A stretch of DNA of 64,000 bases from Candidatus Omnitrophota bacterium (GCA_023247035.1 JAHFHG010000003.1:15081-79080); one strand, 5' to 3'; shown: positions 12,177 to 61,891, numbered from the stretch's first letter. Numbers and translations are program-made. Notes: generated from the sequence alone by a model not told the origin.

Positions 12177-12199
12177 GAATCCTCTACTCCCCACCAGTT
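12177..12199 (+). repeat. attR: second copy of the 23-bp tRNA-Tyr 3'-end direct repeat
   Basis: gaatcctctactccccaccagtt, identical to 7630-7652. Confidence 0.8.
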
Positions 12200-25910: not shown

Positions 25911-25946
25911 TAAAGCCTTACTTCCATCAAAGCTGAGGGAAAGGAT

Positions 25947-26768: not shown

Positions 26769-26812
26769 AGTTATTTTGGCACCAGGATAAACAGATTTCA
26801 CTTCTTGCTATC

Positions 26813-27940: not shown

Positions 27941-27976
27941 CCTATAATATAAATGTAACGCGAGAATCGAAATCAA

Positions 27977-33394: not shown

Positions 33395-33400
33395 CGCCTG

Positions 33401-34570: not shown

Positions 34571-34635
34571 AAAATTCATCCTTCCATACCTGGCTGGACC
34601 CGTTGAGGGTTTGAAAATGCTAGACAAAGGATAAA

Positions 34636-38193: not shown

Positions 38194-38194
38194 T

Positions 38195-42291: not shown

Positions 42292-42387
42292 GCCGACTTA
42301 AATACAAGCTGATTCTGCATTCGATATGAAAACTAAGCAGCCGTCAAGATTGGTTAAAACTTATAATTTTTTCATCTCATCCTCCCT

Positions 42388-45589: not shown

Positions 45590-46704
45590 TCCCACTCGTT
45601 GATTTAAAAGCCCAATATGAATCCCTGCGAGAAGAAATCAATGCGGGCATCCAGTCGGTACTTGATAAGAGCGCCTTCGTTCTCGGAGAAGAAGTGCAAA
45701 AATTCGAGAAGGATTTTGCAGCTTACTGCAGTGGGAAGGTTTGTGTGGGGGTCGGGAATGGTACGGATGCCCTCTATCTTACATTAAAAGCCCTGGGAAT
45801 CGGGCCCGGGGATGAGGTCATCACGGTTTCCCACACTTTTATCGCCACCGCTGAAGCCATTTCGCTTACCGGGGCTCAACCTGTGTTTGTGGATATCCGG
45901 GAAGATACAATGCTGATGAATGCGGACCTTGTTGAAGCTGCTATTACAAAAAAAAGCCGGGCGATTCTTCCTGTCCATCTTTACGGACAGCCGTGTGATA
46001 TGAAATCCCTCTCAGCAATTGCGAAACGTTATAATCTTTGGGTGATTCAAGATGCAGCCCAAGCCCATGGCGCGTTTTGGCAGGGCCAGCCGATTGCCTT
46101 GTTGGGAGATGCAACGTGCTTTAGTTTTTACCCCGGGAAAAATCTGGGCGCTTATGGTGACGGAGGGGCGGTAGTCAGTCAGAATGAAGAATTGATTTCT
46201 AAAATCCGTAAGCTCGCAAATCATGGCCGCGTCACAAAGTATTCTCACGAGCTCGTAGGAGTGAATAGCCGTTTGGATAGCCTGCAAGCGGCTGTTCTGC
46301 GTATTAAATTGCGATATTTAAATCAATGGAATGAAGCCCGCTGCCGGCTTGCGGCCTCTTATCTTGACGCCTTAAAGGAAACGAAGGAAATTTTTTTGCC
46401 TTCTGTTCATAAAGAGGCTTCAAGTGTTTGGCATCTTTTTGTTGTTCGTATCCCAAAACGCGAGGATATAAGAAACCTCATGAAAGAACACAAGATTGAA
46501 ACCGGGATTCATTATCCGGTTCCGGTTCATCAGCAGCCGGCCTATCAGGGGCTCCGGATTCCCAAGGGCAGTCTCCCGGTAACGGAAAAAGCAGCCGCAG
46601 AAGTTCTCAGCTTACCTTTATATCCTGAATTGCTCAAAGAGAACCTTGAAATTGTGGCTCAAACTCTTAAAGAAGTGCTTGAGAGGCTTTTCTCATGGAA
46701 ATAG
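45586..46704 (+). CDS. DegT/DnrJ/EryC1/StrS-family sugar aminotransferase (second copy)
   Basis: GTDAL...VITVSHTF...PVHLYGQ...DAAQAHGA...FSFYPGKNLGAYGDGG. Confidence 0.85.
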   Translation: MIPLVDLKAQYESLREEINAGIQSVLDKSAFVLGEEVQKFEKDFAAYCSGKVCVGVGNGTDALYLTLKALGIGPGDEVITVSHTFIATAEAISLTGAQPVFVDIREDTMLMNADLVEAAITKKSRAILPVHLYGQPCDMKSLSAIAKRYNLWVIQDAAQAHGAFWQGQPIALLGDATCFSFYPGKNLGAYGDGGAVVSQNEELISKIRKLANHGRVTKYSHELVGVNSRLDSLQAAVLRIKLRYLNQWNEARCRLAASYLDALKETKEIFLPSVHKEASSVWHLFVVRIPKREDIRNLMKEHKIETGIHYPVPVHQQPAYQGLRIPKGSLPVTEKAAAEVLSLPLYPELLKENLEIVAQTLKEVLERLFSWK

Positions 46705-48071
46705 GGTTTGAAAGCATCGGCAATGCGACACTGATTTGTTACGACAAAAAGCCGGTTCTCGTCACAGATCCCTGGCTTACGGGCGGCGCCTACTTTGAAA
46801 GCTGGACGTTGTCCCATGAAATACCCGAAGAACAGATGAAAGCAATTCTATCCAGCGAGTATGTGTGGCTATCTCACGGTCATCCGGATCATCTCAGTTC
46901 TGCCTCCTTGAAACTTCTGAAAGGCAAAAGGATTTTATTGCCGGACCACGTCGGCTCCAGAATCTACGGCGAAATGGAGACGCAAGGGTATGATGTCCAC
47001 CGCCTCAAAGACCGGCAATGGATTAAACTGTCCGACCGAATCCGAATTTTAACAATCGCAGATTACTATCAGGATGCCATCATCCTGATTGATATTAATG
47101 GACGTTTGATTGTGAATACAAACGACGCAGGAGAACTCGGCTGGGGTCCTTTTGTAAGAAAAACGATTAAAAAATACGACATCTCATTTCTTTTGTCTTT
47201 GTCGGGTTTTGGCGACGCGGATATGCTCAACTATTTTGACGAAAGAGGAGAAAGGATCATGCCCATAGGCGCGAAAAGGATTCCATTCGGAAAGACCGTG
47301 GCCCTTTTTGCAGAGGGTTTTGGGGTTAAATATTTTTTGCCGTTCAGTTCCATGCATCAATACCGGAGATCGGATAGCCTTTGGGCCAATCGGTGTGTGA
47401 CCGCACTCTCCGATTATGAGGTTGGATTCGAATCCAAATCCTGTAAAATTTTGCCGGCGTTTATCCGTTACGACTGCCTCAAGGACCAATACCAATGCCT
47501 TAATCCGGCCATGAATCCCATTAAAGTTTTGCCTCCGGAGGAAATCGGTGACTCCTGGGATGATCCGCTTGAGCCGGGAGATTTTGAATTAGTCAAAAAC
47601 TACTTTAAAGCCGTCTCTCATCTTGAGCGGACTCTTGATTTTATTAATGTCCGTGTTGCAGGCAAAGATCACCGGATTGAATTTAACCGTCATAGGTTTG
47701 ACCGGGGAATCACATTCGAAACTCCAAGGAAATCGCTGATGCTGGCTGTCACACATCAAATATTTGATGATTTACTTATCGGAAACTTTATGAAGACGAC
47801 CCTGCATGGAACATGGCGTACGAAGAGCATTTATCCTTATTTTAGTCCCTATGTTCCCAAGTATGCTGATAATGGCAGGGCGAGGACGCGTGAGGAGCTT
47901 GCCGCTTATTTTAAGGAATATCGCAAGCGTGCGTTTCTCGATTACTTCCGCCATAAGATCGAAGAGGGCTCCACCAACATCCTTCGCCCTTTATTTTCTC
48001 GAGATTCTAAAGCCTTTCATGTTGGAAGGATTGTTTACTACAAATATAAACGACTTACCAGCGCTTTATAA
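46695..48071 (+). CDS. MBL-fold metallo-hydrolase domain protein with an uncharacterised C-terminal domain
   Basis: N-terminal ...VWLSHGHPDHL (HxHxDH) and a later DAIILIDINGRLIVNTNDAG; C-terminal 250 aa unknown. Confidence 0.5.
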   Translation: MEIGFESIGNATLICYDKKPVLVTDPWLTGGAYFESWTLSHEIPEEQMKAILSSEYVWLSHGHPDHLSSASLKLLKGKRILLPDHVGSRIYGEMETQGYDVHRLKDRQWIKLSDRIRILTIADYYQDAIILIDINGRLIVNTNDAGELGWGPFVRKTIKKYDISFLLSLSGFGDADMLNYFDERGERIMPIGAKRIPFGKTVALFAEGFGVKYFLPFSSMHQYRRSDSLWANRCVTALSDYEVGFESKSCKILPAFIRYDCLKDQYQCLNPAMNPIKVLPPEEIGDSWDDPLEPGDFELVKNYFKAVSHLERTLDFINVRVAGKDHRIEFNRHRFDRGITFETPRKSLMLAVTHQIFDDLLIGNFMKTTLHGTWRTKSIYPYFSPYVPKYADNGRARTREELAAYFKEYRKRAFLDYFRHKIEEGSTNILRPLFSRDSKAFHVGRIVYYKYKRLTSAL

Positions 48072-48186
48072 AAGAAACTTTTGTATCAAGACCCTGAAAT
48101 TGTATTGCAGAAATTTTGTTTTAACTATATATTAAGGCAGCCGATACTAATTTTAGCCTCATTAGCCTCACATCAAAGGAGTCGGG

Positions 48187-49734
48187 ATGAAAGTCGGTTG
48201 TGTTTTTTCACAGGATGATTACGCAAGCAAAGAGAAACCTCTTAAAAATGCGGCAGAAATTCCTTACGGCATTTCCATCATTGCCACCATCCTTAAAGTC
48301 AATCGTCATGATACCCGCCTTTTCGTTTTTTGCCCGGTCTCGCCGGTCGAAGAAATCCTCGAAGGTTATATAAGAACGGAACGCCCGCGTTTATTTTGCC
48401 TTTCGGCGGTTTCATCCCAATTTCTTTATATTGAAAAGGTAGCTCGTATTATCAAAAAAATTGACCCGAGTATTTTTGTCATTTTGGGAGGGCACCACGC
48501 CTCTCTGGCCCCCGAAAATGCCATTCAATCTCCTAACCTGGACGCCATTTGTATTGGAGAAGGGGATTTTGCAATTCAGGAATTAGCCGTCCAAATTGAA
48601 AAAGGGGAAAAGGTCACCCAAATTTCAGGGCTCTGGATTAAGGATAAAACAACGGAATGCATCGAGAAAAACCCTACTCGTCCCTTTCTGCAAGAGCTTG
48701 AAACCCTGCCTTTCATCGACCGCACGATGTGGGAACCCTGGATCCTGTTTCGGGATGAGCAAGCCTCCATCCTCGTCGGCCGGGGCTGCCCTTTTAAATG
48801 CACTTATTGCTCCAATCACGCTATTGCCAAATTGTCGGAAGGAACCTTTGTCCGGTTTCGTCCTCCTCACGATTTAGTCGGGGAAATCAAATATGTGTCG
48901 GAGCAGTATCCTAATCTCAGAAAATTTTATTTGGAAGTAGAGACCATTGGTGCTTATATCACCAAGGCGAAAGAATTATTCCGCGCAATCGCAGATTACA
49001 ATGGCTCTCGAGAAGAAAAATTAACCTTTAGTATGAATCTGGCGGTTCATTCTGCTTTTATGAGAAATAGAGAAGATGTCAGAGAGTTCTTCAGTTATTG
49101 CAGGGACGCGAATGTGGTCAATCTCAATATCGGCCTTGAATCCGGCTCGGAGAGAATGCGTAAGGAGATTCTTCGCCGGCCCCGCTATACGAATAAAGAG
49201 CTGGTTGAATTTGCAGCCATCGCTAAAGAGTTTGGAATCACTATTTCCCTCTATGTCTTAATGGGCCTTCCGACTGAAACCCCGAAGGATTTTGCCGAGA
49301 CTGTTCAAGCGGTGAGGGATATCAATCCGAATGAAGTCTCTTTATCTATTTTTTATCCTTATATAGGCACCGATTTATACAACATTTCAAAGGAATATGC
49401 CCCTGATGTGGATTTAGACCCGCGCGCTGAACGCACCAAAGCTGTTTTGAATATTCCGACCTTCCCCAGATGGCGGATTCGGTTGGAATACGTCCTTTTC
49501 TGGTACAAAGCTTTTAGAGGAAATTGGCCTCTTTTCAAGATATTCAGTTATATGGTGAAGGCCTACATTTCACCTCATGAAAACCTTCAGCGAGCTTACC
49601 GGTTTTTGATTAAGAAAAGCAGGTTCTTGTACCGGTTAAAAAATTTAGTTACGAAAAATTCAGTTACGATTACCGGGAAGTCAGCCGCAATCTTTCATGG
49701 GGAACGTGCCTTGGTCTCAGAAAGACTGGCTTAA
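48187..49734 (+). CDS. B12-binding-domain radical SAM enzyme (class B radical SAM, methyltransferase-type)
   Basis: N-terminal B12-binding-like domain, then VGRGCPFKCTYCSNH (CxxxCxxC). Confidence 0.75.
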   Translation: MKVGCVFSQDDYASKEKPLKNAAEIPYGISIIATILKVNRHDTRLFVFCPVSPVEEILEGYIRTERPRLFCLSAVSSQFLYIEKVARIIKKIDPSIFVILGGHHASLAPENAIQSPNLDAICIGEGDFAIQELAVQIEKGEKVTQISGLWIKDKTTECIEKNPTRPFLQELETLPFIDRTMWEPWILFRDEQASILVGRGCPFKCTYCSNHAIAKLSEGTFVRFRPPHDLVGEIKYVSEQYPNLRKFYLEVETIGAYITKAKELFRAIADYNGSREEKLTFSMNLAVHSAFMRNREDVREFFSYCRDANVVNLNIGLESGSERMRKEILRRPRYTNKELVEFAAIAKEFGITISLYVLMGLPTETPKDFAETVQAVRDINPNEVSLSIFYPYIGTDLYNISKEYAPDVDLDPRAERTKAVLNIPTFPRWRIRLEYVLFWYKAFRGNWPLFKIFSYMVKAYISPHENLQRAYRFLIKKSRFLYRLKNLVTKNSVTITGKSAAIFHGERALVSERLA

Positions 49735-53654: not shown

Positions 53655-54468
53655 CCTTCAAGGCCTTCGGGTCGCTTTTCTGATGAGCGTCTACCGGGAG
53701 GAGCGCCCTGAATTCCTCCGGCAATCCCTTGAAAGTATGTGCCGGCAAACCTACGGCAATCTGGACATCCATATTTTTGAGGACGGAAATCTGGGGGAGG
53801 AGCTTTCGCAAGTTTTGTTTTTTTATGGGGGCCGGCATTCGAATTTATTTTTTCACCGGCACGCAGAAAATCGCGGGCTGGCGGTATGCCTCAATGAATT
53901 GATCGAAAAATTGAAAGACAGCTACGATTATTTTGCCAGAATGGACTCCGATGACGTTTCTTTCCCTGACCGGGTGCAGAAACAGGTGGAGTTCCTGGAA
54001 GCTCATCCCGAGATCGATGTGGTCGGCGGCTCGATTTTGGACATCGATGAATCCGGCCGGTATCTTAAAGAGGTCCGTTATCCCGAAGACCATCAAACAA
54101 TCGTGAAATTTTTTCAAAAACGAAACCCGATGGCCCACGCGGCCGTGATGTACCGCAGAAGCTATTTCGAAAAGGCGGGGCTTTATCCTCCGGTCCGGCT
54201 GGAGGACGGGTTGTACTGGATGCAGGGCATCATGGCAGGGTGCCGGTTCCACAATATCCCGGATTTCCTTTTGGGCGTCCGGCGCACCGAGGATTTTCTC
54301 AAGCGAAGATCTGGATTGAAGAAAGCCTGGGATGAGTTTAAAATCAAGCTCACCATTAACCGCCGACTGGGGTTTGGGGCAGTCGCTTATCTTTACTCCG
54401 TAGCGATTTTTCTCATGCAGCTCTTGCCCATTCCGATTAAAAAAATTTTGTATGAAAAATTACGATAA
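53611..54468 (+). CDS. Glycosyltransferase family 2
   Basis: VAFLMSVYREERPEFLRQSLESMCRQTY, DSDD (DxD), ...AHAAVMYRRS. Confidence 0.7.
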   Translation: MRTLSNLKPPSQRPSLQGLRVAFLMSVYREERPEFLRQSLESMCRQTYGNLDIHIFEDGNLGEELSQVLFFYGGRHSNLFFHRHAENRGLAVCLNELIEKLKDSYDYFARMDSDDVSFPDRVQKQVEFLEAHPEIDVVGGSILDIDESGRYLKEVRYPEDHQTIVKFFQKRNPMAHAAVMYRRSYFEKAGLYPPVRLEDGLYWMQGIMAGCRFHNIPDFLLGVRRTEDFLKRRSGLKKAWDEFKIKLTINRRLGFGAVAYLYSVAIFLMQLLPIPIKKILYEKLR

Positions 54469-55177
54469 AATACGCAACGCGAGCGCGCGGGACGGGCGAC
54501 TGTCCGGCTATTTCGTGCTCAAGCGGTCGCTTGATGTCCTGTTTTCTTTGTTTGCGGTGATTCTCTTGGCGCCGCTTTTTTTCGGGATTGCGGCGTGGAT
54601 CAAGAGGGAGTCGCACGGCCCCGTATTTTTCTCCGGCTTGCGCATCGGAAAAAACGGCCGGCCGTTTCGAATGCTGAAGTTTCGGACCATGATTGCGGAT
54701 GCGGATAAAATCGGCGGCTCTTCAACCCCTGGAGATGACCCGCGCCTTACCCGGGTCGGAAAATTTCTAAGACGGTACAAACTCGACGAACTGCCGCAAT
54801 TTTTGAACGTTCTCCGGGGGGAGATGAGTTTTGTGGGGCCGCGGCCTCAAGTGGAGTGGGCGGTCAAGCTTTACACGGAGGAGGAAAAGGCCGTGATGGG
54901 CGTTTCCCCAGGCATTACAGACTTCGCCTCCATCCGGTTTCGGAACGAAGCGGAAATCCTCCGCGGCAGCAGGAATCCGGATCAAGATTACCTTGAAAAA
55001 ATCGCGCCCGAAAAAATGCGCCTCGCCTTGGAATATGTCAGGAAACAATCTTTGGGAGTGGATTTAAAAATCATTTTAGCGACTGCAGGCACGTTGCTCG
55101 GGCTGCCGCCGGATTGGATTTTTAGAGGCTCCGAGGCGGGCAAAAAAGAACTTATCCCCGAAAATCAAACATCTTAG
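54452..55177 (+). CDS. Small bacterial sugar transferase (PglC/WbaP-C-terminal-like undecaprenyl-phosphate phosphoglycosyltransferase; initiating enzyme)
   Basis: Single N-terminal TM; hallmark KFRTM...DELPQFLNVLRGEMSFVGPRP. Confidence 0.85.
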   Translation: MKNYDKIRNASARDGRLSGYFVLKRSLDVLFSLFAVILLAPLFFGIAAWIKRESHGPVFFSGLRIGKNGRPFRMLKFRTMIADADKIGGSSTPGDDPRLTRVGKFLRRYKLDELPQFLNVLRGEMSFVGPRPQVEWAVKLYTEEEKAVMGVSPGITDFASIRFRNEAEILRGSRNPDQDYLEKIAPEKMRLALEYVRKQSLGVDLKIILATAGTLLGLPPDWIFRGSEAGKKELIPENQTS

Positions 55178-55192
55178 TGAAGGGGAAACGCT

Positions 55193-55993
55193 TTGGTCAA
55201 ACCGCAAGAATTAAAAAAAGGAAATTCCCGGACTCAAAGAGACGGAGTGAAGTCCTTTAAAACGGAAGCCGAACGCCAAGTTGGAAAAAATATCGAGCGC
55301 ATCTTTACCGAAAGTTCCGACAGCGTCGAGATCAAGCTCCGGAATTTTCCCAAATATGTGGGAAGGCAGCACCTCAAACGTTTCTTGGCCTTCTATGAAA
55401 TTTTTAAACGTGTCCTGCCCGTGAAAGGATCCGTTGTCGAGTGCGGCGTTTTTCGGGGATTTGGATTGATGTCCTGGGCCAAGCTGAGCACGATACTGGA
55501 GCCTGAAAATTTGACCCGCCGCATTTACGGCTTCGATACTTTTGAAGGGTTCCCTTCGATCCATCCCAAGGACCAAAGCGGCTACCAAAAGAGCGGAAGC
55601 GGGGACTTCGCAACGCAGAGTTACGACGAACTGCTCCAGCTCATCGGCGAGTATGACAACGACCGGTTTTTGGGATATTTTGAAAAAGTAAAATTGATTC
55701 GCGGCGACATGACCAAGACGATCCCGGATTTTATAAAAGATAATCGGCATTTGATTGTCAGTTTATTGTTTCTGGATTGCGATCTCTATGAACCCACTCG
55801 AGCCGCCCTCCAGCATTTCCTGCCTCGAATGCCGCGGGGAGCCGTTCTGGCGTTTGATGAGCTGGATAATCCGATTTGGCCCGGTGAGACGACGGCGCTT
55901 TTGGAAAATTTTGGAATTCGCAACCTTAAACTCGAGCGTCTGGAATGGGACCCTTATATCAGCTACGCTGTGCTGGACCGGAAAAATCGATGA
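55193..55993 (+). CDS. TylF/MycF-family (macrocin-O-methyltransferase-like) SAM-dependent sugar O-methyltransferase
   Basis: VVECGVFRGFGLMSWA, LFLDCDLYEPTRAAL, GAVLAFDE - a TylF-family pattern. Confidence 0.65.
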   Translation: MVKPQELKKGNSRTQRDGVKSFKTEAERQVGKNIERIFTESSDSVEIKLRNFPKYVGRQHLKRFLAFYEIFKRVLPVKGSVVECGVFRGFGLMSWAKLSTILEPENLTRRIYGFDTFEGFPSIHPKDQSGYQKSGSGDFATQSYDELLQLIGEYDNDRFLGYFEKVKLIRGDMTKTIPDFIKDNRHLIVSLLFLDCDLYEPTRAALQHFLPRMPRGAVLAFDELDNPIWPGETTALLENFGIRNLKLERLEWDPYISYAVLDRKNR

Positions 55994-56838
55994 ATCCTGC
56001 AAGCGGAAAAGTTCTTCGCAAACAAAAACTGTATCCCTCGCTCGCCAAAAGGATCCGGCAGAATGTGCTGCAGATGACGCACGACGCCCGGAGTTCCCAT
56101 GTCGGCACTTCGCTTTCAATGGCCGATCTCCTGGCGGTCCTTTACGGCGGCATTTTACGCGTGCGGCCCGAGGAGCCGGATTGGCCCGCGCGCGACCGGT
56201 TCATTCTCAGCAAGGGGCACGGCTGCGCCGGCCTGTACGCGGCGCTGGCCGAGAGGGGATTTTTTCCCCGGGCCTGGCTCGAGAATTTTTATCAAAATGG
56301 CTCGCGCCTTGCCGGACATGCGACTCACCACGGCGTCCCGGGAGTTGAGGTTTCGACCGGATCTTTGGGGCACGGTTTGCCGATGGCCTGCGGAATGGCG
56401 GTGGCCGGCAAGCGGGGCGGTGAAGATTACCGTGTTTTTGCGCTCTTGAGCGACGGCGAGTGTGACGAAGGTTCGGTTTGGGAAGCGGCCTTGTTCGCCT
56501 CGCACCATAAACTCGACCATTTGACTGTGATTGTGGATTACAACAAAATCCAAAGCCTCGGAGCAGTGAAAGATATTCTGTCCCTAGATCCTTTCATCGC
56601 CAAATGGGAGGCCTTCGGCTGGAGCGCGCGCGAGATTGACGGCCACGATACGGACAAAATCGAAAAGGCCTTTAAAGAAATGCCTTTCAAAGAAGGGAAG
56701 CCGAGCTGTTTGATCGCCCACACTTTGAAAGGCAAGGGAGTCGGCTTCATGGAAAATGCGCTTCTTTGGCATTACCGTTCGCCTGACGTTGAAGAGTTGA
56801 GGCGCGCCTTGAAAGAATTGGACGGGGGCGAAGAATGA
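55990..56838 (+). CDS. Transketolase N-terminal (ThDP/PP-binding) subunit, split form
   Basis: HVGTSLSMADLLAVLY...DRFILSKGH...GSLGHGL...LLSDGECDEGSVWEA; ATGA overlap with the upstream stop (ORF-track start 55945). Confidence 0.8.
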   Translation: MNPASGKVLRKQKLYPSLAKRIRQNVLQMTHDARSSHVGTSLSMADLLAVLYGGILRVRPEEPDWPARDRFILSKGHGCAGLYAALAERGFFPRAWLENFYQNGSRLAGHATHHGVPGVEVSTGSLGHGLPMACGMAVAGKRGGEDYRVFALLSDGECDEGSVWEAALFASHHKLDHLTVIVDYNKIQSLGAVKDILSLDPFIAKWEAFGWSAREIDGHDTDKIEKAFKEMPFKEGKPSCLIAHTLKGKGVGFMENALLWHYRSPDVEELRRALKELDGGEE

Positions 56839-57767
56839 GGACCGCTTTTTTCCGTACGCTCCTGGATTTAGCGGCGCAGGATGAGCGGATCCACCTTGTC
56901 GTCGCTGATATCGGTTTCGGCGCGGTCGAGCCCTTTGCAGAAAGGTATCCCGACCGCTTTCTTAATGTGGGAGTGGCGGAACAGAATATGATCGGGATCT
57001 CCGCGGGCCTGGCATTAAGCGGCAAGGTTGTCTTTGCTTATTCGATCAGTAATTTCCCAACGCTGCGCTGCCTGGAACAAATCCGCAACGACGTTTGTTA
57101 TCATAATGCAAGCGTCAAAGTTGTGGCGGTCGGCGGAGGATTCACCTACGGCGCTTTGGGGATGTCTCACCACGTTACGGAAGACATCGCCATTTTGAGA
57201 GCGCTTCCCAATATGACGGTCGTGGCCCCCGGAGATCCGGTGGAAACGGAATACGCAACCCGCGCCCTGGCCGCTTATCAAGGCCCTTGCTATTTGCGGC
57301 TGGGAAGGGCAGGAGAGCCGGTCATTCATAAACAAGGAATTGATTTTCAATTGGGGAAGGCGATTGAGGTTCGTCCCGGAAGTGACCTGACTTTGATTTC
57401 GACGGGCGGCCTCTTGGAAATCGCGGTTCAAGCCGCGGAGGCCTTGGAGGCTTGCGGGGCGCAAGTGCGCGTGCTCAGTATGCCTACGGTAAAGCCTTTG
57501 GATCAGGAAGCCGTGCTTGCCGCCGCCCGGGAAACGCCTGCGATCGCGACGCTGGAAGAGCACAGCGTGCTCGGAGGGCTCGGAGGAGCGGTCGCTGAAG
57601 TCCTGGCTGAATCCCTAGCAGAAAAGGTTCTTTTTAAAAGGTTAGGCCTGCCTTCGGTTTTTTCCTCCCACATTGGCGATCAGAATTATTTACGCGCAGC
57701 TTACGGTCTTTCGAAAAGCGGCATTGTGGAATCTTTGAAATCCCTTTTAGACCTCGTGCGAAAATGA
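56835..57767 (+). CDS. Transketolase C-terminal (Pyr + C-terminal domain) subunit, split form
   Basis: GVAEQNMIGISAGLALSGK...YSISNF...GPSH (here GMSHH)...TLEEHSVLGGLG. Confidence 0.8.
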   Translation: MRTAFFRTLLDLAAQDERIHLVVADIGFGAVEPFAERYPDRFLNVGVAEQNMIGISAGLALSGKVVFAYSISNFPTLRCLEQIRNDVCYHNASVKVVAVGGGFTYGALGMSHHVTEDIAILRALPNMTVVAPGDPVETEYATRALAAYQGPCYLRLGRAGEPVIHKQGIDFQLGKAIEVRPGSDLTLISTGGLLEIAVQAAEALEACGAQVRVLSMPTVKPLDQEAVLAAARETPAIATLEEHSVLGGLGGAVAEVLAESLAEKVLFKRLGLPSVFSSHIGDQNYLRAAYGLSKSGIVESLKSLLDLVRK

Positions 57768-58906
57768 CGGCTCTCCTTCCTTTGAAAACCCAGCCGGGCT
57801 GGAAAGTCCGCTTCGTGGATTATCCCCGGCAATTCCGGAAAATGGAAACCGAAATCATGGAGACAATCCATTCGGTCCTCTCGCAGGGCGATCTCATCCT
57901 CCGCCGGCAATTGCTGGATTTCGAAAGCGGTTTCGCGGAATTCGTCGGGACGCGTTTTGCCGTCGGATTGAGCAATTGCACGGACGCGATTCATCTGTCT
58001 CTCCGGGCCGCAGGCATCAAAGCCGGGGACGAGGTGATTACGGTTTCGCATACTTTTGTCGCCACGGCTGCCGCAATCCATCATGCGGGAGCTGTCCCGG
58101 TGCTTGTCGATATCGGCGACGACCACAATATGGATGTCCGTCTTTTGGAGAAGGCGATCACGCCAAAGACGCGCGCGATTGTGCCCGTCCATTTAAACGG
58201 CCGGCTTTGCGATATGGACCCGCTCATGACGGTTGCGGAAAAGCACGGTTTGATTGTGATCGAAGATTCGGCGCAGGCGCTGGGGGCTTCTTATCGAGAC
58301 AAACGCGGCGGATCATTCGGCGCTGCGGGATGCTTCAGTTTTTATCCCGCCAAACTGCTCGGCGCTTTTGGAGACGCCGGCGCCCTGACGACCCATAGTG
58401 AAGAAATCGCGGAAAAAGTGCGCTCGCTCCGGGATCACGGGCGAAACAAGGCAGGAGATATCGACGGCTGGTCTTTTAATTGCCGGATGGACAATCTCCA
58501 GGCCGCGCTGCTGAATCTCAAATTGGCGCGGCTTTCGGAATGTATTGCGCGAAGGCGGGAAATCGCCCGGCTGTATCACGAGCGCTTATCGTCCGTTACC
58601 GAGCTGCGTTTGCCTCCGCCTCCGGGAGCGAGCGGAATTTATTACGACGTATTTCAAAACTACGAGATCGAGGCTCCACAAAGAGACAAACTGGTTTCTT
58701 TTTTGAAAGAAAAAGGAATTGAGATCCTTATTCCCTGGGGCGGCAAAGGCGTGCATCAATTCAAGGCTTTGGGGCTTTCGGACTTTGAGCTGCCGCGCAC
58801 GGAGCGCCTTTTTCGAAACGTCCTGATGCTGCCGCTGCACACGGAATTAACCGACGATCAAATCGAATACGTGAGCGATGTTGTCCGCAAATTCTACGGC
58901 TGTTAA
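57764..58906 (+). CDS. DegT/DnrJ/EryC1/StrS-family sugar aminotransferase (third copy)
   Basis: CTDAIHLSL...VITVSHTF...PVHLNGR...DSAQALGA...FSFYPAKLLGAFGDAG. Confidence 0.85.
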   Translation: MTALLPLKTQPGWKVRFVDYPRQFRKMETEIMETIHSVLSQGDLILRRQLLDFESGFAEFVGTRFAVGLSNCTDAIHLSLRAAGIKAGDEVITVSHTFVATAAAIHHAGAVPVLVDIGDDHNMDVRLLEKAITPKTRAIVPVHLNGRLCDMDPLMTVAEKHGLIVIEDSAQALGASYRDKRGGSFGAAGCFSFYPAKLLGAFGDAGALTTHSEEIAEKVRSLRDHGRNKAGDIDGWSFNCRMDNLQAALLNLKLARLSECIARRREIARLYHERLSSVTELRLPPPPGASGIYYDVFQNYEIEAPQRDKLVSFLKEKGIEILIPWGGKGVHQFKALGLSDFELPRTERLFRNVLMLPLHTELTDDQIEYVSDVVRKFYGC

Positions 58907-59705
58907 AAAAGAAAACGGGACCGTGATCAGGCCGGACTTCACCACGGTCACGGAAATGCCCGGCAGCCGGGCCTCCCGCGAACAACTTTCGATGCTTTAT
59001 ACGCGCTATCACTTTGCGGCCTCGTTTTGCGCGGAAAAAGATGTTCTCGAGGCGGCGTGCGGCGCCGGCCCGGGATTAGGCTATCTGGGACGCCGCGCGA
59101 AAAAGGTTATTGGAATCGATATTGATGCACGCAATTTGAGTGTTGCGCAAAGCCACTATCGGGGAAGGCAGAATATTGAGCTGCTTTCTATGGATGCTCA
59201 CACTCTGGAATTTGAGGACGCATCGTTTGATGTCATCATCCTCTTTGAAGCTATTTATTACCTCAACCAGCCCCGGAGGTTTCTGGCGGAATGCCGCCGT
59301 GTTCTAAGAGACGGGGGAACGCTGCTTCTCAATACCGTGAATCCGGAATGGCGCGATTTTAATCCAAGCCCTTTCAGCACGCGTTATTTTGGGGCCCGCG
59401 AATTGCGTGATCTGCTTGAAAGTTCCAATCTTAAGGCGAATCTTTTCGGAGCCTTTCCGGGCTCCGGCTCTTCATTGAGATTTAAAACCATTTCATTTCT
59501 CAAACGGACCGCCGGAAATCTGGGGCTTATTCCAAAAACAATGAAGGACAAGGAATCCTTGAAACGCATTTTTTTCGGAAGGCTGGAGCCGTTTCCGTCC
59601 GAGGTCCGGGAGGCGATGGCTCAATATGCGGCGCCTGTTCCTCTTCCGATCGATGGCCCGGTCCCTCAATATAAAGTTCTTTACGCCGCCGGCAGAAAAA
59701 GATGA
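58878..59705 (+). CDS. Class I SAM-dependent methyltransferase
   Basis: VLEAACGAGPGLGYL (motif I), GIDIDARNL, VIILFEAIYYL, LRDGGTLLL; true start may lie at a downstream Met. Confidence 0.7.
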   Translation: MLSANSTAVKKENGTVIRPDFTTVTEMPGSRASREQLSMLYTRYHFAASFCAEKDVLEAACGAGPGLGYLGRRAKKVIGIDIDARNLSVAQSHYRGRQNIELLSMDAHTLEFEDASFDVIILFEAIYYLNQPRRFLAECRRVLRDGGTLLLNTVNPEWRDFNPSPFSTRYFGARELRDLLESSNLKANLFGAFPGSGSSLRFKTISFLKRTAGNLGLIPKTMKDKESLKRIFFGRLEPFPSEVREAMAQYAAPVPLPIDGPVPQYKVLYAAGRKR

Positions 59706-59971
59706 AGGCTTCAAATAGAAAAATCGCGGGGCTTGATCTTGATAGAAGGAGGAAATTCTTTTATAAGCAATGTCTCGTATGCTACTATAAAGGCTGAAAA
59801 AATAGATTGAATGTCCGGACGGTTGGAATATTCCTTCATCGAGGCATCCCTGCGTATCGGGTGGATTTCCAAGCAGAAGGAAGGCTCGATTGAGCGGTTC
59901 CGTAAGTAAAAAGAAACCTTTTAATAAAAAAATCGATCGCCGAAGCTGTCACCTATCGGAAACATTTAAGT

Positions 59972-61891
59972 TTGCTAAACACCTCATCGTTTCGCCAGTG
60001 CATCCCATTTTTGCGTAAAGCCGCTCTGCTTCTTTGCGACGCCGCGTTGGTGAACGCCTCTTTTTTTCTTGCCTTTCTCATCCGTTTTGACCAGACCCCT
60101 GAATTTTTCACCGTGATGGGAATCTACCAACACCTGATTCTGCCCATAACCGTCATCCGTTTGGCGCTCTTCTACGCGTTTGGGTTGTACGAGTGGTCCT
60201 TTCGATACGCCAGCTTAAGCGAAGCCATCCAGTTACTGAGCGCCGTCTGCGCGAGTTCCTTGATGATCTTTGCCTGTATTGCCTTTTTCTTTTTTCAGCA
60301 GTACCGGACGATGATCGGACGTTCCGTGCTGCTTATTGATTTTCTCATTTGTCTTTTCCTTTTGGCCGCTTCCAGGTTCTCCGTCCGGGGCCTTATAAAG
60401 TTCCAGCAAAAATTTAGAAACTATTTTCAAAAATTAGACCTTAACCGGACTTTAATCATCGGAGTCGGCGACGCCGGAGAGCTCTTGCTTCGAGAGTTTC
60501 AAAAACATTCCTATTTGAAGTACTGGCCGGTCGGTTTTTTGGACAATGACCGTGAAAAACGAGGGATGCGGATTCACGGCGTCAAGGTATTGGGCGCGCT
60601 TTCTGATCTGCCGCGGGTGGCCGTGAAAAAACATATCCGCACCGTGATTATCGTCCTTCCCCGAATTTCCCGGGATCAGATCCAGGAAATCATCCGGACT
60701 TGCCAGCAGCTTCAACTGGCCTGCCGCATTTTGCCTCCCGCTTCTCTTTTATGGTCAAGCCAGATTTTTCCTTTAAAGCTGAGGGATGTCGACGCCTCGG
60801 ACCTGTTGGGACGTGAAATCATTCAAACGGACCCGGCCCGGATGCAGGACTTTTTTAGAAACAAAAAAGTTTTGATCACGGGCGGCGGAGGATCCATCGG
60901 CTCCGAAATTGCAAAGATTCTCTCCCGGACTCAACCCCAGGAATTGATCCTTGTGGATCACGCGGAAAATAATCTTTACGAGATCCAAAATTATTTTCAA
61001 GAAAATCCTACGGAAACCGTCGTCAATTATTATCTTTGCGACGTGAAAAACCGGGAGGATATGGAAAAGATTTTTGACGCGCATCGCCCTCACATTGTTT
61101 ATCACGGAGCTGCCCACAAACACGTTCCGTTAGGCGAACAGTTCTACAAAGAGGGGATTTTGAATAATGTGCTCGGGACTAAAGTGACCGCCGATCTAGC
61201 CTGTGCGTATGGAGCCCGGACCTTTGTCCTGATCTCCACGGATAAAGCGATCCGGCCTGCCAGTATTATGGGATCTACAAAAAGAATCGCGGAACTTTAT
61301 ATTCAAAGTTTGAAGGACAGGGGGACGGATTTTCTCTCCGTTCGTTTTGGAAATGTCCTCAACAGCCGGGGCAGCGTGGTGCCGCTCTTTCAAAAGCAGC
61401 TGCAGGAAGGCTCTCCCGTCACCGTGACGGACGCCAACGTCACGCGCTATTTTATGGACCTTTGCGAGGCCGTCTTTTTAATCATGGAAGCGACCCGGCT
61501 GGGCTCGGATTCGGAAATCTTCGTCCTTGATATGGGAAAACCCATCAAAATTGTGAACCTGGCCCGCTCCCTTGCCCAGCTTATGGGAATCGCGGAAGAC
61601 CAAATGACGTTGAAGTATATCGGGCTACGCCCGGGAGAAAAACTGGAAGAAGAAATTGAACTCAACTCCGAAACTGCGATCCCGACCCAGCACCGGAAGA
61701 TCAAAATCTGGAAATCCTCCCGGCAGCCCGCACCTGAGGATCTAGCGAGAGCCATCGAAGAACTCTTTGATCTTGTCCAACAAGGCGCCCCGAAAAACGC
61801 GGTCATCCAAAAGCTCAGCGAGATTGTCCCGGAGTACAGGCCTGTTTCCAAGGATTTTGCAGGCCCGCAAGTTCTCAACGCCCCCCATTAA
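59972..61891 (+). CDS. Membrane-anchored nucleotide-sugar 4,6-dehydratase (WbpM/PglF/CapD family, Polysacc_synt_2)
   Basis: Four N-terminal TM helices, a CoA-binding-like linker (LIIGVGDAGELL), then VLITGGGGSIGSEIAKIL...YHGAAHKHVPL...STDKA. Confidence 0.85.
   Translation: MLNTSSFRQCIPFLRKAALLLCDAALVNASFFLAFLIRFDQTPEFFTVMGIYQHLILPITVIRLALFYAFGLYEWSFRYASLSEAIQLLSAVCASSLMIFACIAFFFFQQYRTMIGRSVLLIDFLICLFLLAASRFSVRGLIKFQQKFRNYFQKLDLNRTLIIGVGDAGELLLREFQKHSYLKYWPVGFLDNDREKRGMRIHGVKVLGALSDLPRVAVKKHIRTVIIVLPRISRDQIQEIIRTCQQLQLACRILPPASLLWSSQIFPLKLRDVDASDLLGREIIQTDPARMQDFFRNKKVLITGGGGSIGSEIAKILSRTQPQELILVDHAENNLYEIQNYFQENPTETVVNYYLCDVKNREDMEKIFDAHRPHIVYHGAAHKHVPLGEQFYKEGILNNVLGTKVTADLACAYGARTFVLISTDKAIRPASIMGSTKRIAELYIQSLKDRGTDFLSVRFGNVLNSRGSVVPLFQKQLQEGSPVTVTDANVTRYFMDLCEAVFLIMEATRLGSDSEIFVLDMGKPIKIVNLARSLAQLMGIAEDQMTLKYIGLRPGEKLEEEIELNSETAIPTQHRKIKIWKSSRQPAPEDLARAIEELFDLVQQGAPKNAVIQKLSEIVPEYRPVSKDFAGPQVLNAPH

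What the first reader, a model, noticed from the sequence alone, without database searches (positions are those of the whole stretch)
55990..57767. Split transketolase (N- and C-terminal subunits) embedded between sugar methyltransferase and aminotransferase genes
Two overlapping genes encode the PP-binding half and the Pyr/C-terminal half of transketolase (HVGTSLS...GSLGHGL; GVAEQNMIGISAG...GMSHH). They are flanked by a TylF-type O-methyltransferase and a DegT aminotransferase rather than pentose-phosphate genes. In sugar pathways, ThDP enzymes of this kind transfer a two-carbon (glycolaldehyde/hydroxyethyl) unit onto a keto-sugar nucleotide to create C-branched sugars. Their presence here suggests a two-carbon branched or chain-extended sugar in the repeat unit.
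Basis: partly seen in the sequence, partly recalled or inferred. Interest (0 to 1): 0.55.

Follow-up and report, generated by a model that had tools for sequence, protein, structure and literature searches.

The report
Sugar-branching split transketolase in glycan operon
Two overlapping genes encode a two-piece transketolase from a widespread, uncharacterised clade that sits beside nucleotide-sugar 4,6-dehydratase genes, so it most likely adds a two-carbon side branch to a cell-surface sugar rather than serving central metabolism.

Summary
Window 55990-56838 encodes the ThDP-binding (PP) half and 56835-57767 the Pyr plus C-terminal half of a split transketolase (TK). The two genes are joined by an ATGA overlap.

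They lie in a translationally coupled cassette: PglC-like phosphoglycosyltransferase, CalS11/TylF-like O-methyltransferase, TK-N, TK-C, DegT aminotransferase, class I methyltransferase, PglF-like UDP-HexNAc 4,6-dehydratase.

In 82 related loci from more than 10 phyla, the same TK clade sits in one of two settings:
- in this cassette (50 loci);
- in a CDP-glucose pathway (rfbF-rfbG-rfbH-SDR-TK), the position YerE holds in yersiniose synthesis (11 loci, including Microcystis aeruginosa; also two more distant plasmid loci).

One Paenibacillus gene fuses a nucleotide-sugar SDR domain to TK-N.

The clade keeps the cofactor-binding and catalytic residues. It has lost His461 and Asp469, which bind the sugar phosphate and the aldose in canonical TK.

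In the cassette, DegT and an aldo-keto reductase are mutually exclusive (38 versus 10 loci, none with both).

Best reading (about 0.6): the TK adds a C2 ketol unit to C4 of the 4-keto sugar, and DegT or the reductase then acts on the new branch carbonyl. No biochemistry exists for this. It is a new variant of ThDP-dependent sugar branching.

The parts
54452..55177 (+). PglC-like small phosphoglycosyltransferase. It would put the finished sugar-1-phosphate onto the lipid carrier.
   Evidence: Pfam Bac_transf at 1.7e-57. The DELPQ catalytic motif is present. Found within 6.5 kb of the TK in 34 of 35 full-flank class A loci, usually directly upstream.
55193..55993 (+). TylF/CalS11-like O-methyltransferase, an optional member of the cassette.
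   Evidence: Pfam TylF at 1.2e-12. Nearest solved structure is CalS11, a TDP-rhamnose 3'-O-methyltransferase that acts on a nucleotide sugar, at 3.3e-40. Present in 24 of 82 related loci, immediately upstream of TK-N where seen. Its stop overlaps the TK-N start.
55990..56838 (+). Split transketolase, N-terminal subunit (ThDP diphosphate-binding PP domain).
   Evidence: Transketolase_N at 1.2e-44. Nearest PDB entry is 6YAK chain A, the split TK of C. hydrogenoformans, at 2.9e-76 and 48% identity. It keeps His26, His66, His100, Asp155 and Asn185 (E. coli numbering) and the WH(Y) histidine equivalent to His261. The GDG motif is SDG in all 65 aligned family members.
56835..57767 (+). Split transketolase, C-terminal subunit (Pyr domain plus TK C-terminal domain).
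   Evidence: Transket_pyr at 3.8e-30 and Transketolase_C at 4.9e-25. Nearest PDB entry is 6YAJ at 1e-65 and 39% identity. It keeps Glu411, His473, Arg358 and Arg520. It has Gly for His461, Leu for Asp469, Ala for Glu468, Ile for Phe434 and Gly for Ser385; the first four of these positions are altered in all 71 aligned family sequences.
57764..58906 (+). DegT-family PLP aminotransferase, proposed to aminate the new branch carbonyl. The alternative is that it aminates C4 of the sugar.
   Evidence: DegT_DnrJ_EryC1 at 3.2e-101. The SFYPAK lysine motif is present. Nearest PDB entries are 7B0D and 3UWC, then named C3-type aminotransferases DesV, QdtB and WbpE (205-275 bits overall); the C4-type PglE and PseC score about 119 bits. 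It is below every named NCBIfam cut-off. It is orthologous to the cassette DegT of distant loci: 45.5% identity against 40% or less to paralogues. It is mutually exclusive with an aldo-keto reductase across 50 loci.
58878..59705 (+). Class I SAM methyltransferase, an optional member found only together with DegT. A possible N-methyltransferase.
   Evidence: Methyltransf_11 at 7.5e-24. Only weak PDB matches, the best being phosphatidylethanolamine and phosphoethanolamine N-methyltransferases at about 40 bits. Present in 19 of 38 DegT-type loci and 0 of 12 loci without DegT, Fisher p = 0.0015.
59972..61891 (+). PglF/WbpM-like membrane-anchored UDP-HexNAc 4,6-dehydratase. It supplies the 4-keto-6-deoxy sugar.
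   Evidence: Polysacc_synt_2 at 6.7e-100 plus CoA_binding_3. The STDK and MxxxK motifs typical of PglF are present. Below the curated NCBIfam cut-offs for PseB and FnlA. Public gene calls start it at 60050. Within 6.5 kb of the TK in 23 of 35 full-flank class A loci.

Best explanation
The two genes encode an alpha2beta2 ThDP enzyme of the transketolase superfamily that has been recruited to nucleotide-sugar biosynthesis.

Proposed route; every step is inferred from context and residues, none from assay:
1. The PglF-like dehydratase converts UDP-GlcNAc to UDP-2-acetamido-2,6-dideoxy-hexos-4-ulose.
2. The split TK loads a two-carbon ketol unit on ThDP as dihydroxyethyl-ThDP. The donor could be a ketose or hydroxypyruvate and is unknown. 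The TK adds the unit to the C4 ketone, giving a tertiary alcohol with a 4-C-hydroxyacetyl branch.
3. The new exocyclic ketone is transaminated by the cassette DegT. In sister cassettes it is instead reduced by an aldo-keto reductase or an SDR, as YerF and Pau7 do for acetyl branches.
4. The class I methyltransferase and the CalS11-like O-methyltransferase decorate the product at the nucleotide-sugar level.
5. The PglC-like transferase puts the finished sugar-1-phosphate on undecaprenyl phosphate as the first sugar of the repeat unit.

Shown here: gene identities, operon coupling, cross-phylum synteny, and the residue pattern. Inferred: the acceptor, the regiochemistry, the donor, and what DegT aminates.
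For: 1. Identity and coupling. Pfam and PDB matches are strong. ATGA overlaps link the methyltransferase, TK-N, TK-C and DegT.

2. Conserved cassette. The order PglC-[AKR]-[TylF]-TKN-TKC-[DegT-(class I/II aminotransferase)-(MT11)]-PglF occurs in 50 of 82 distinct related loci. These span Omnitrophota, Nitrospirota, Acidobacteriota, Chloroflexota, Elusimicrobiota, Planctomycetota, Verrucomicrobiota, Zixibacteria and others.

3. A second, independent dehydratase context. Eleven loci carry rfbF-rfbG-rfbH-SDR-[methyltransferase]-TKN-TKC-GtrA-GT2. In Microcystis aeruginosa LEGE 91341, the cytidylyltransferase, CDP-glucose 4,6-dehydratase and RfbH all score above NCBIfam curated cut-offs. Methylovirgula sp. 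HY1 plasmid pHY1 has the same layout in RefSeq annotation. This is the yersiniose pathway layout with the TK where YerE sits (PMC12247030).

4. Gene fusion. In a Paenibacillus cellulosilyticus plasmid, an NDP-sugar SDR domain is fused to TK-N, next to rfbF, rfbG, an NDP-hexose C-methyltransferase, TK-C and a TylF-like methyltransferase.

5. Residues. The clade keeps the ThDP/Mg ligands and the catalytic His26, His66, His100, His261, His473 and Glu411. His461 is Gly in 71 of 71 sequences, and Asp469 is never Asp. The plasmid members show the same pattern. The clade sits apart from the C. hydrogenoformans and E. coli enzymes in a neighbour-joining tree.

6. DegT and AKR never co-occur (38, 10, 0 with both, 2 with neither; p = 6e-9). 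This fits two alternative fates for one carbonyl.

7. Precedents. The AKR Pau7 reduces the branch ketone of paulomycose (PMC4753412). The split TK DesAB cleaves a hydroxyacetyl group from a tertiary ring carbinol, the reverse of the proposed step (PMC3735941 and PMC12065433). Split TKs lack the inter-domain linker, which leaves room for bulky acceptors (PMC7661550).

8. The cassette DegT resembles C3-type aminotransferases rather than PglE or PseC. No PglD-type acetyltransferase is in the cassette.
Against: - No transketolase has been shown to accept an NDP-keto-sugar or any sugar ketone. The miharamycin/amipurimycin proposal is still untested.
- If DegT aminates C4, as PglE does, it would consume the proposed acceptor. 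The DegT/AKR exclusivity would equally fit two fates of the C4 ketone.
- Loss of His461 and Asp469 is not specific to glycan TKs. A rhizobial split TK in a catabolic context (ABC transporter, FGGY kinase) has Ser461 and Leu469.
- PglF was not found within 6.5 kb in 12 of 35 full-flank class A loci.
- Six loci put the TK next to E1-alpha, E1-beta and a lipoyl E2, which hints at other chemistry.
- The donor is unknown, and no donor-supplying gene is conserved.
- No C4-hydroxyacetyl-, dihydroxyethyl- or aminohydroxyethyl-branched HexNAc is known to me from bacterial glycans (own knowledge).
- The source genome could not be checked for a second TK.
Confidence: 0.6

Rival explanations
1. This is the housekeeping pentose-phosphate transketolase, and it lies in a polysaccharide cluster by chance.
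For: All ThDP/Mg-binding and core catalytic residues are retained. Some bacteria, such as C. hydrogenoformans, have only a split TK (PMC7661550). Whether the source genome has another TK could not be tested.
Against: Synteny with PglC and PglF, or with rfbF/G/H, holds in 61 of 82 loci across many phyla. ATGA coupling ties it to sugar-modifying genes. His461 is lost in all family members and Asp469 is never retained. Summed NCBIfam scores (276.8 + 199.7) fall below the 488-bit transketolase cut-off. The clade occurs in cyanobacteria, which depend on a canonical TK for the Calvin cycle (own knowledge), and on plasmids of cultured bacteria. No pentose-phosphate genes are nearby.
Confidence: 0.03
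2. The cassette makes a bacillosamine-like 4-amino sugar (PglF, then DegT at C4, then N-methylation). The TK does not touch the sugar ring. Instead it supplies or installs a C2 acyl group, for example N-glycolyl or N-acetyl through oxidised or dehydrated dihydroxyethyl-ThDP, taking the place of PglD.
For: The gene set PglF + DegT + PglC is the bacillosamine set, with the TK where an acetyltransferase would be. TK-like E1 enzymes that deliver glycolyl units are known in quinocarcin biosynthesis (own knowledge). Six related loci pair the TK with a lipoyl E2.
Against: Ten class A loci have an aldo-keto reductase and no aminotransferase, so there is no amine to acylate, yet they keep the TK. Class B loci are CDP-3,6-dideoxy pathways that pair the TK with an SDR. 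The cassette DegT is nearer to C3-type enzymes than to PglE or PseC. The window cassette has no carrier protein, lipoyl domain or acyltransferase. Direct acyl transfer from ThDP to an amine has no precedent (own knowledge).
Confidence: 0.12
3. The acceptor and regiochemistry are as in the best explanation, but the enzyme acts like DXS or YerE. It decarboxylates pyruvate and installs an acetyl (hydroxyethyl-ThDP-derived) branch, not a hydroxyacetyl one.
For: TK-C scores well against DXS models (154 bits to TIGR00204; DXS structures at about 1e-32). All demonstrated sugar-branching ThDP enzymes use 2-oxo acids (PMC12247030). The pocket is changed relative to canonical TK.
Against: TK-N is far closer to TK than to DXS (153 versus 34 bits). 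His100 and His473, which bind the C1 hydroxyl of the ketol unit in TK (own knowledge), are retained in the family. DesAB, a split TK, handles a hydroxyacetyl group.
Confidence: 0.15
4. The TK makes or remodels a free sugar phosphate precursor, for example a heptulose or octulose phosphate, that feeds another sugar of this very large cluster. Alternatively it acts catabolically or in salvage.
For: The window cluster encodes many other sugar pathways. Other split TKs are catabolic, as in the Rhizobium sp. T136 locus, apulose-4-P TK and sulfofructose TK (own knowledge; PMC11659671 is listed).
Against: The minimal conserved cassette (PglC, AKR or DegT, TK, PglF) contains no kinase, isomerase or nucleotidyltransferase to process such a product. 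The phosphate-binding His461 and, in the window protein and about half of the aligned family sequences, Ser385 are lost. The SDR::TK-N fusion ties the TK to a nucleotide-sugar-type SDR domain.
Confidence: 0.05

Closest known systems
Split-gene transketolase of Carboxydothermus hydrogenoformans (PDB 6YAK/6YAJ; PMC7661550)
   Same: It has the same two-gene architecture (PP domain, then Pyr plus C domain) and is the best sequence match among solved structures (2.9e-76 and 1e-65). It has the same ThDP/Mg ligands and catalytic histidines. It presumably forms the same alpha2beta2 assembly.
   Different: Identity is only 48% and 39%, against 58-76% and 47-74% within the window's clade. ChTK has the canonical GDG motif, His461, Glu468 and Asp469; the window enzyme has SDG, Gly, Ala and Leu. 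ChTK is that organism's general TK, whereas this one is embedded in a glycan operon.
YerE/YerF of Yersinia pseudotuberculosis (CDP-yersiniose A) and YerE-like LPS branching enzymes
   Same: The proposed job is the same: ThDP-dependent addition of a C2 unit to C4 of an NDP-4-keto-6-deoxy sugar, followed by processing of the branch carbonyl. Class B relatives have the same rfbF-rfbG-rfbH upstream pathway (PMC12247030).
   Different: YerE belongs to the decarboxylase (acetolactate-synthase-like) ThDP superfamily and uses pyruvate. This enzyme belongs to the TK superfamily and probably transfers a ketol (hydroxyacetyl) unit. In the window the acceptor would be a UDP-HexNAc derivative, and the follow-up enzyme is an aminotransferase, not a reductase.
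Split transketolases proposed for miharamycin/amipurimycin, and 13 Streptomyces split TKs (Krug et al. 2024, as summarised in PMC12247030)
   Same: These are split-gene TKs proposed to add a hydroxyacetyl unit to a keto sugar.
   Different: They come from actinomycete antibiotic clusters and none is characterised. The present clade is in cell-surface polysaccharide operons of many mostly uncultured phyla. The review states that LPS branching is done by YerE-like enzymes. I could not obtain their sequences to compare.
DesAB steroid-17,20-desmolase of Clostridium scindens
   Same: It is a split TK with non-sugar-phosphate chemistry. It breaks the bond between a tertiary ring carbinol and a -C(=O)CH2OH group, the microscopic reverse of the proposed branch formation.
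   Different: It has a steroid substrate, works in the catabolic direction and belongs to a different operon (desABCD). The sequence relationship was not tested here.
Bacillosamine cassette PglF-PglE-PglD-PglC (Campylobacter and Neisseria)
   Same: It has a PglF-type membrane dehydratase with TDK and MxxxK motifs, a DegT-family aminotransferase, and a small PglC-type transferase for the initiating sugar.
   Different: The window cassette has no PglD acetyltransferase. The split TK and two methyltransferases occupy that space. The aminotransferase is not PglE-like, and in sister cassettes it is replaced by an aldo-keto reductase.
AviB1/AviB2-type E1 branching enzymes with the AKR Pau7 (paulomycose)
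   Same: A two-subunit ThDP enzyme builds a C4 two-carbon branch, and an aldo-keto reductase then reduces the branch ketone (PMC4753412). This parallels the AKR-type sister cassettes.
   Different: Those enzymes are pyruvate-dehydrogenase E1 alpha/beta homologues that use pyruvate. The window enzyme is TK-type, and the window cassette carries DegT rather than an AKR.

Membership tests
Canonical transketolase (EC 2.2.1.1, pentose-phosphate pathway) | ThDP/Mg2+ binding: GDG...N motif and the activating glutamate (E. coli Asp155, Asn185, Glu411). | tested here: met
   Asp155, Asn185, Ile187 and Glu411 are conserved. The first Gly of GDG is Ser (SDG) in the window protein and all 65 aligned family members.
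Canonical transketolase (EC 2.2.1.1, pentose-phosphate pathway) | Catalytic histidines His26, His66, His100, His261 and His473. | tested here: met
   All are present. The His261 equivalent was seen as the WHY motif in 63 of 66 sequences.
Canonical transketolase (EC 2.2.1.1, pentose-phosphate pathway) | Sugar-phosphate and aldose recognition: His461, Ser385, Arg358 and Arg520 for the phosphate, Asp469 for the C2-OH of the acceptor (roles from own knowledge of yeast and E. coli TK structures). | tested here: not met
   The window protein has Gly461, Gly385 and Leu469. Position 461 is Gly in 71 of 71 sequences, and position 469 is never Asp. Arg358 and Arg520 are retained.
Canonical transketolase (EC 2.2.1.1, pentose-phosphate pathway) | Score above the curated NCBIfam equivalog cut-off. 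| tested here: not met
   The best model is NF004559. The two subunits score 276.8 and 199.7 bits against a cut-off of 488 for a full-length protein.
Canonical transketolase (EC 2.2.1.1, pentose-phosphate pathway) | It is the genome's TK, or has pentose-phosphate neighbours. | tested here: inconclusive
   There are no pentose-phosphate genes and no second TK in the 64 kb window.
Split-gene transketolase architecture (ChTK type) | Adjacent genes for the PP domain and for the Pyr plus TK-C domains, without the inter-domain linker. | tested here: met
   Pfam domain layout. Alignments to 6YAK and 6YAJ cover residues 18-282 of the 282-aa TK-N and nearly all of TK-C. The genes overlap by 4 nt.
Split-gene transketolase architecture (ChTK type) | Assembly into an active alpha2beta2 heterotetramer. 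| not testable with these tools
   Shown for ChTK (PMC7661550). Only inferred here.
ThDP-dependent NDP-keto-sugar C-branching enzymes (functional class: YerE, AviB1/B2, proposed TKs) | Encoded next to an NDP-sugar 4,6-dehydratase that supplies a 4-keto acceptor. | tested here: met
   A PglF-like gene lies in the same operon. Relatives sit next to PglF-like or rfbG genes in 61 of 82 loci and in two plasmids.
ThDP-dependent NDP-keto-sugar C-branching enzymes (functional class: YerE, AviB1/B2, proposed TKs) | A partner enzyme processes the branch carbonyl (YerF and Pau7 are reductases). | tested here: inconclusive
   Sister cassettes carry an AKR or an SDR, and one has an SDR::TK-N fusion. The window has DegT instead, and its target carbonyl is unknown.
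ThDP-dependent NDP-keto-sugar C-branching enzymes (functional class: YerE, AviB1/B2, proposed TKs) | Demonstrated C-C bond formation on an NDP-4-keto sugar. | not testable with these tools
   This needs an enzyme assay. No TK-type enzyme has passed this test according to PMC12247030.
YerE family (decarboxylase-type ThDP superfamily) | Acetolactate-synthase/pyruvate-oxidase-like three-domain fold. | tested here: not met
   Only TK, DXS and E1 families match, and no TPP_enzyme_N/M/C domains. It may work like YerE but is not a member.
Bacillosamine pathway (PglF/E/D/C) | PglF-type 4,6-dehydratase and PglC-type phosphoglycosyltransferase. | tested here: met
   Polysacc_synt_2 at 6.7e-100 with STDK and MxxxK motifs. 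Bac_transf at 1.7e-57 with the DELPQ motif.
Bacillosamine pathway (PglF/E/D/C) | PglE-type C4 aminotransferase. | tested here: inconclusive
   The gene is DegT family with the catalytic Lys. PglE (1O61) and PseC (2FN6) score about 119 bits, against 205-275 bits for 7B0D, 3UWC, DesV, QdtB and WbpE. Sequence alone does not fix regiochemistry.
Bacillosamine pathway (PglF/E/D/C) | PglD-type N-acetyltransferase (left-handed beta-helix). | tested here: not met
   There is no hexapeptide acetyltransferase in the cassette 54452-61891. The only Hexapep domain in the window belongs to a WbpB/WbpD-like fusion at 19259-20911.

The most novel reading that the evidence does not exclude
The window carries one member of a large, cross-phylum and so far undescribed clade of split transketolases that are the TK-type counterpart of YerE. 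They form a C-C bond on the C4 ketone of nucleotide-activated 4-keto-6-deoxy sugars (UDP-HexNAc type here, CDP-3,6-dideoxy type in cyanobacteria and others). In DegT-type cassettes such as this one, the resulting hydroxyacetyl branch would be transaminated and N-methylated. The product would be a 4-C-(1-amino-2-hydroxyethyl)-branched, methylated HexNAc as the initiating sugar of the polymer, a sugar class not yet reported from any glycan.
Probability: 0.3. Interest if true: 0.8.

Novelty: new variant of a known kind. Interest (0 to 1): 0.62.

Why it matters
ThDP-dependent branching of bacterial surface sugars is known only from YerE-like enzymes. Transketolase-type branching of a ketone is an untested proposal, limited to a few Streptomyces antibiotic clusters (PMC12247030).

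If this clade does what its context indicates, three things follow. It would be the first TK-type sugar-branching system in primary glycan biosynthesis. It would be present in hundreds of species across soil, groundwater and cyanobacterial lineages: at least 547 candidate loci were found among species-representative genomes. It would point to unknown branched, possibly amino-branched, sugars on their surfaces.

It would also give biocatalysis a natural transketolase that accepts ketones and makes alpha-functionalised tertiary alcohols, which the same review names as an unmet goal. Cultured carriers make the question directly testable: Microcystis aeruginosa LEGE 91341, Methylovirgula sp. HY1 and Paenibacillus cellulosilyticus KACC 14175.

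Tried and rejected
- **Literature.** Eight full-text searches found no paper describing a TK in a PglC/PglF or rfbFGH cassette. There was one passing mention of TK subunits beside radical SAM, methyltransferase and glycosyltransferase genes in Campylobacter fetus. One search failed on syntax. The key bioinformatic paper (Krug et al. 2024) is not held.
- **Second TK in the genome.** Testing whether the source genome has another TK was not possible. 
- **Residue signature.** I considered using the loss of His461 and Asp469 as a diagnostic of glycan TKs. I rejected this because a catabolic rhizobial split TK also lacks both.
- **Shared DegT lineage.** I tested whether DegTs next to the TK in class A and class B form one lineage, which would argue that they recognise the branch. 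They do not (33% identity). Only the class A cassette DegTs are mutually orthologous.
- **Alignment problems.** The MAFFT alignment misplaced E. coli His261 because the E. coli sequence had been cut at residue 330. I checked it by motif instead. In a second, smaller alignment, positions 358-385 were unreliable and were ignored.
- **Gene clustering.** Single-linkage clustering merged E1-beta proteins with TK-C in four loci. These were removed from the tree by their Gln473.
- **Promoter, terminator and tRNA scans** around the cassette gave nothing above background.
- **Structure prediction** was not run. Homology to 6YAK and 6YAJ is unambiguous, the active site lies between two chains, and the tool models only one chain.

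Full report
**Observation**

The finding is accurate. Window 55990-56838 (+) encodes a 282-aa protein matching Pfam Transketolase_N (1.2e-44). Window 56835-57767 (+) encodes a 310-aa protein matching Transket_pyr (3.8e-30) and Transketolase_C (4.9e-25). The quoted motifs are present.

Stop and start codons overlap as ATGA at three junctions: methyltransferase/TK-N, TK-N/TK-C and TK-C/DegT. These four genes are therefore translationally coupled. An upstream ATG at 55945 exists. The 55990 start is the one used for the identical public protein.

The best solved-structure matches are the two chains of the Carboxydothermus hydrogenoformans split transketolase, 6YAK and 6YAJ (2.9e-76 and 1e-65). That enzyme is an active alpha2beta2 tetramer (PMC7661550).

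**Surroundings**

The genes lie at the 3' end of a same-strand polysaccharide cluster of about 48 kb (13.5-62 kb). It includes:
- export and chain-length genes and a Wzy-like polymerase;
- a flippase-like gene and six glycosyltransferases;
- a UDP-ManNAc3NAcA-type gene set and an NDP-hexose C-methyltransferase set;
- a B12-radical SAM gene.

The immediate operon runs in this order:
- PglC-like phosphoglycosyltransferase (54452-55177);
- TylF-like O-methyltransferase (55193-55993), whose nearest structure is CalS11, which methylates a nucleotide sugar;
- TK-N and TK-C;
- DegT aminotransferase (57764-58906);
- class I methyltransferase (58878-59705);
- PglF-like membrane-anchored 4,6-dehydratase (59972-61891), with the STDK and MxxxK motifs.

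No pentose-phosphate gene and no second transketolase is in the window.

**Comparative genomics**

TK-N has thousands of relatives. The closest 120 are 65-100% identical and come from Nitrospirota, Omnitrophota, Acidobacteriota, Chloroflexota and Elusimicrobiota, among others.

The best 80 were fetched with 10 kb flanks. With three metagenome loci added and duplicates removed, 82 distinct loci were analysed by tblastn and by clustering of all ORFs. Three contexts account for 67 of them.

- **Class A (50 loci, including the window type).** The order is PglC-[aldo-keto reductase]-[TylF]-TKN-TKC-[DegT-(class I/II aminotransferase)-(class I methyltransferase)]-PglF. Among 35 class A loci with full flanks, 34 have PglC and 23 have PglF within 6.5 kb.
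- **Class B (11 loci).** The order is glucose-1-phosphate cytidylyltransferase, CDP-glucose 4,6-dehydratase, RfbH 3-dehydrase, SDR, [methyltransferase], TKN, TKC, GtrA, GT2.
- **Class C (6 loci).** E1-alpha, E1-beta and a lipoyl-bearing E2 precede the TK.

In Microcystis aeruginosa LEGE 91341, the three class B pathway enzymes score above NCBIfam curated cut-offs (347, 474 and 763 bits).

More distant members (44-45% TK-C identity) in cultured bacteria show the class B arrangement in RefSeq annotation. Methylovirgula sp. HY1 plasmid pHY1 has rfbF-rfbG-SDR-rfbH-TKN-TKC. A Paenibacillus cellulosilyticus plasmid has rfbF-rfbG-C-methyltransferase-[SDR fused to TK-N]-TKC-TylF-like methyltransferase.

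Class B is the layout of the yersiniose pathway, with the TK where the ThDP enzyme YerE sits and an SDR where YerF sits (PMC12247030).

**Active site**

Using E. coli TktA numbering (sequence), the window enzyme and all aligned family members keep Asp155, Asn185, Glu411, His26, His66 and His100. His473 and the His261-equivalent histidine are kept in the window enzyme and in nearly all members. The enzyme should therefore bind ThDP and form a ThDP-bound carbanion.

Other positions are consistently changed: GDG to SDG, His461 to Gly (71 of 71), Asp469 to Leu, Ala or Gly (never Asp), Glu468 to Ala or Ser, Phe434 to Ile, and Tyr440 to Gln. Ser385 is Gly in the window protein.

From established TK structural work (own knowledge), His461 and Ser385 bind the substrate phosphate, and Asp469 reads the C2 hydroxyl of the aldose acceptor. 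Their loss argues against ordinary sugar-phosphate substrates.

This pattern is not unique to glycan TKs. A Rhizobium split TK in a catabolic operon has Ser461 and Leu469.

In a neighbour-joining tree, the family forms one clade separated by a long stem from the C. hydrogenoformans and E. coli enzymes. Class B forms mostly one subclade. Window-to-family identities are 58-76% for TK-N and 47-74% for TK-C, against 48% and 39% to the C. hydrogenoformans enzyme.

**What the partners say**

Within class A, DegT and the aldo-keto reductase never co-occur (38, 10, 0 with both, 2 with neither; Fisher p = 6e-9). The class I methyltransferase (19 of 38 versus 0 of 12) and a class I/II aminotransferase (13 of 38 versus 0 of 12) occur only with DegT. 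The loci are not phylogenetically independent, so these p-values overstate the evidence, although the AKR type occurs in at least three phyla.

The pattern indicates that one carbonyl is either reduced or aminated, and that the amine is then methylated. There are two candidates.

- **The C4 ketone made by PglF.** In that case the TK has no evident substrate in the minimal cassette PglC-AKR-TK-PglF.
- **The new exocyclic ketone created when a ketol unit is added to C4.** In that case every conserved gene has a role, in parallel with YerE/YerF and with Pau11/12 plus the aldo-keto reductase Pau7 in paulomycose (PMC4753412).

The window DegT is nearer to C3-type aminotransferases such as DesV, QdtB and WbpE (205-275 bits across the top matches) than to PglE or PseC (about 119 bits). 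It is orthologous to the cassette DegT of distant loci rather than to the window's two other DegTs. No PglD-type acetyltransferase is in the cassette. These points favour the second reading but do not prove it.

**Mechanism proposed**

PglF makes UDP-4-keto-6-deoxy-HexNAc. The TK forms dihydroxyethyl-ThDP from an unknown ketol donor and attacks the C4 ketone, giving a 4-C-hydroxyacetyl tertiary alcohol. DegT aminates the branch carbonyl. The two methyltransferases modify the amine and a hydroxyl at the nucleotide-sugar stage. PglC starts the repeat unit with this sugar.

Retention of His100 and His473, which bind the hydroxymethyl group of the ketol unit in TK (own knowledge), favours a hydroxyacetyl branch over an acetyl branch.

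An experimentally established precedent for TK-family chemistry at a tertiary ring carbinol bearing -C(=O)CH2OH is DesAB, the split-TK steroid-17,20-desmolase. It runs the reverse reaction (PMC3735941, PMC12065433). The missing inter-domain linker of split TKs has been suggested to give room for bulky acceptors.

**Comparison with known systems and novelty**

By sequence and architecture this is a split-gene member of the TK superfamily. It fails the substrate-recognition features and the curated score threshold of canonical transketolase.

Functionally it most resembles YerE, but it is not a member of that superfamily. TK-type sugar branching has so far only been proposed, for miharamycin/amipurimycin and 13 Streptomyces split TKs, with none characterised. 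The same 2025 review assigns LPS branching to YerE-like enzymes. I found no description of the PglC-TK-DegT/AKR-PglF cassette or of the rfbFGH-TK arrangement.

I therefore rate it a new variant of a known kind. The known kind is ThDP-dependent C-branching of NDP-keto-sugars. The new elements are the enzyme superfamily, the cell-surface glycan setting, the breadth of distribution, and the possible amination of the branch.

**Limits**

Everything about substrate, donor and product is inference. Specific gaps:
- The source genome could not be searched for another TK.
- PglF is not always near the TK.
- Class C contexts suggest additional chemistry.
- No matching sugar is known from glycan structures.

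My confidence that the TK acts on the 4-keto nucleotide sugar is about 0.6. My confidence that DegT aminates the branch rather than C4 is lower, about 0.3 overall.

Noticed in passing
L051, L054, L055, L058, L060, L062 (e.g. L058:367-6375): In six related loci the same TK clade lies directly after genes for E1-alpha, E1-beta and an E2 with lipoyl, E3-binding and catalytic domains, and before an NDP-sugar SDR. This pairing of two ThDP systems with a lipoyl carrier recalls glycolyl-unit delivery in quinocarcin-type pathways and is not explained.
   Followed up: partly
L088:5097-7004 (Paenibacillus cellulosilyticus KACC 14175 plasmid NZ_CP054609.1): A 635-aa gene annotated only as 'SDR family oxidoreductase' is a fusion of an NDP-sugar epimerase/dehydratase-type SDR domain with a Transketolase_N domain. 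TK-C and a TylF-like methyltransferase follow it.
   Followed up: yes
window 19259-23123 and 36964-39262: The window contains a WbpB/WbpD-like fusion (GFO_IDH_MocA + Hexapep), a WbpE-like DegT, a UDP-GlcNAc 2-epimerase, a UDP-sugar dehydrogenase and a second GFO oxidoreductase. This set looks like a complete pathway for a 2,3-diacetamido-uronic acid (UDP-ManNAc3NAcA type). A fusion with the same Pfam domain composition, again next to a DegT gene, recurs in L004.
   Followed up: partly
window 40028-43395: An NDP-sugar dehydratase-like SDR, an NDP-hexose C-methyltransferase (Methyltransf_13/14, TylC3-like) and a further epimerase/reductase suggest a second, C-methyl-branched sugar in the same polymer.
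   Followed up: no
window 46695-49734: A 458-aa protein with no Pfam match carries an HGHPDH motif, reminiscent of metallo-beta-lactamase-fold enzymes. It is followed by a B12-binding radical SAM enzyme inside the glycan cluster. Campylobacter fetus also has radical SAM genes beside its TK subunits (PMC5013579).
   Followed up: no
window 24588-36150: Several long ORFs inside the cluster have no Pfam family: 24588-25910, 26813-27940, 27977-28924, 30074-31867, 33401-34570 and 34636-36150. They sit next to an AlgX/SGNH-like protein at 32081-33394.
   Followed up: no
14 loci, e.g. L085:5114-6280, L011:13037-14194: A class I/II (aspartate-aminotransferase-fold) aminotransferase directly follows the cassette DegT in 13 of 38 DegT-type cassettes and in no locus without DegT. 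Its role is unknown; it could supply an amino donor, produce the ketol donor, or perform a second amination. It is absent from the window.
   Followed up: partly
L019:10793-11729 and L054:10792-11713: TK-C is broken into two ORFs in two long-read-derived MAGs. This is either a frameshift error or a pseudogene.
   Followed up: no
window 7350-13500: A low-GC stretch (0.40-0.44, against about 0.5 elsewhere) lies between a UvrD-like helicase gene and the glycan cluster. It holds tRNA-Thr and tRNA-Tyr (7476-7649), an ORF with only a sigma-70 region 4 match, and an AAA_14/DUF4143 ATPase.
   Followed up: no
L089:5153-8451 (Rhizobium sp. T136 plasmid pT136c): A split TK sits beside a sugar ABC transporter, an FGGY kinase and tpiA, which is a catabolic context. 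It also lacks His461 and Asp469 (Ser and Leu). Loss of these residues therefore marks non-pentose-phosphate split TKs in general.
   Followed up: partly
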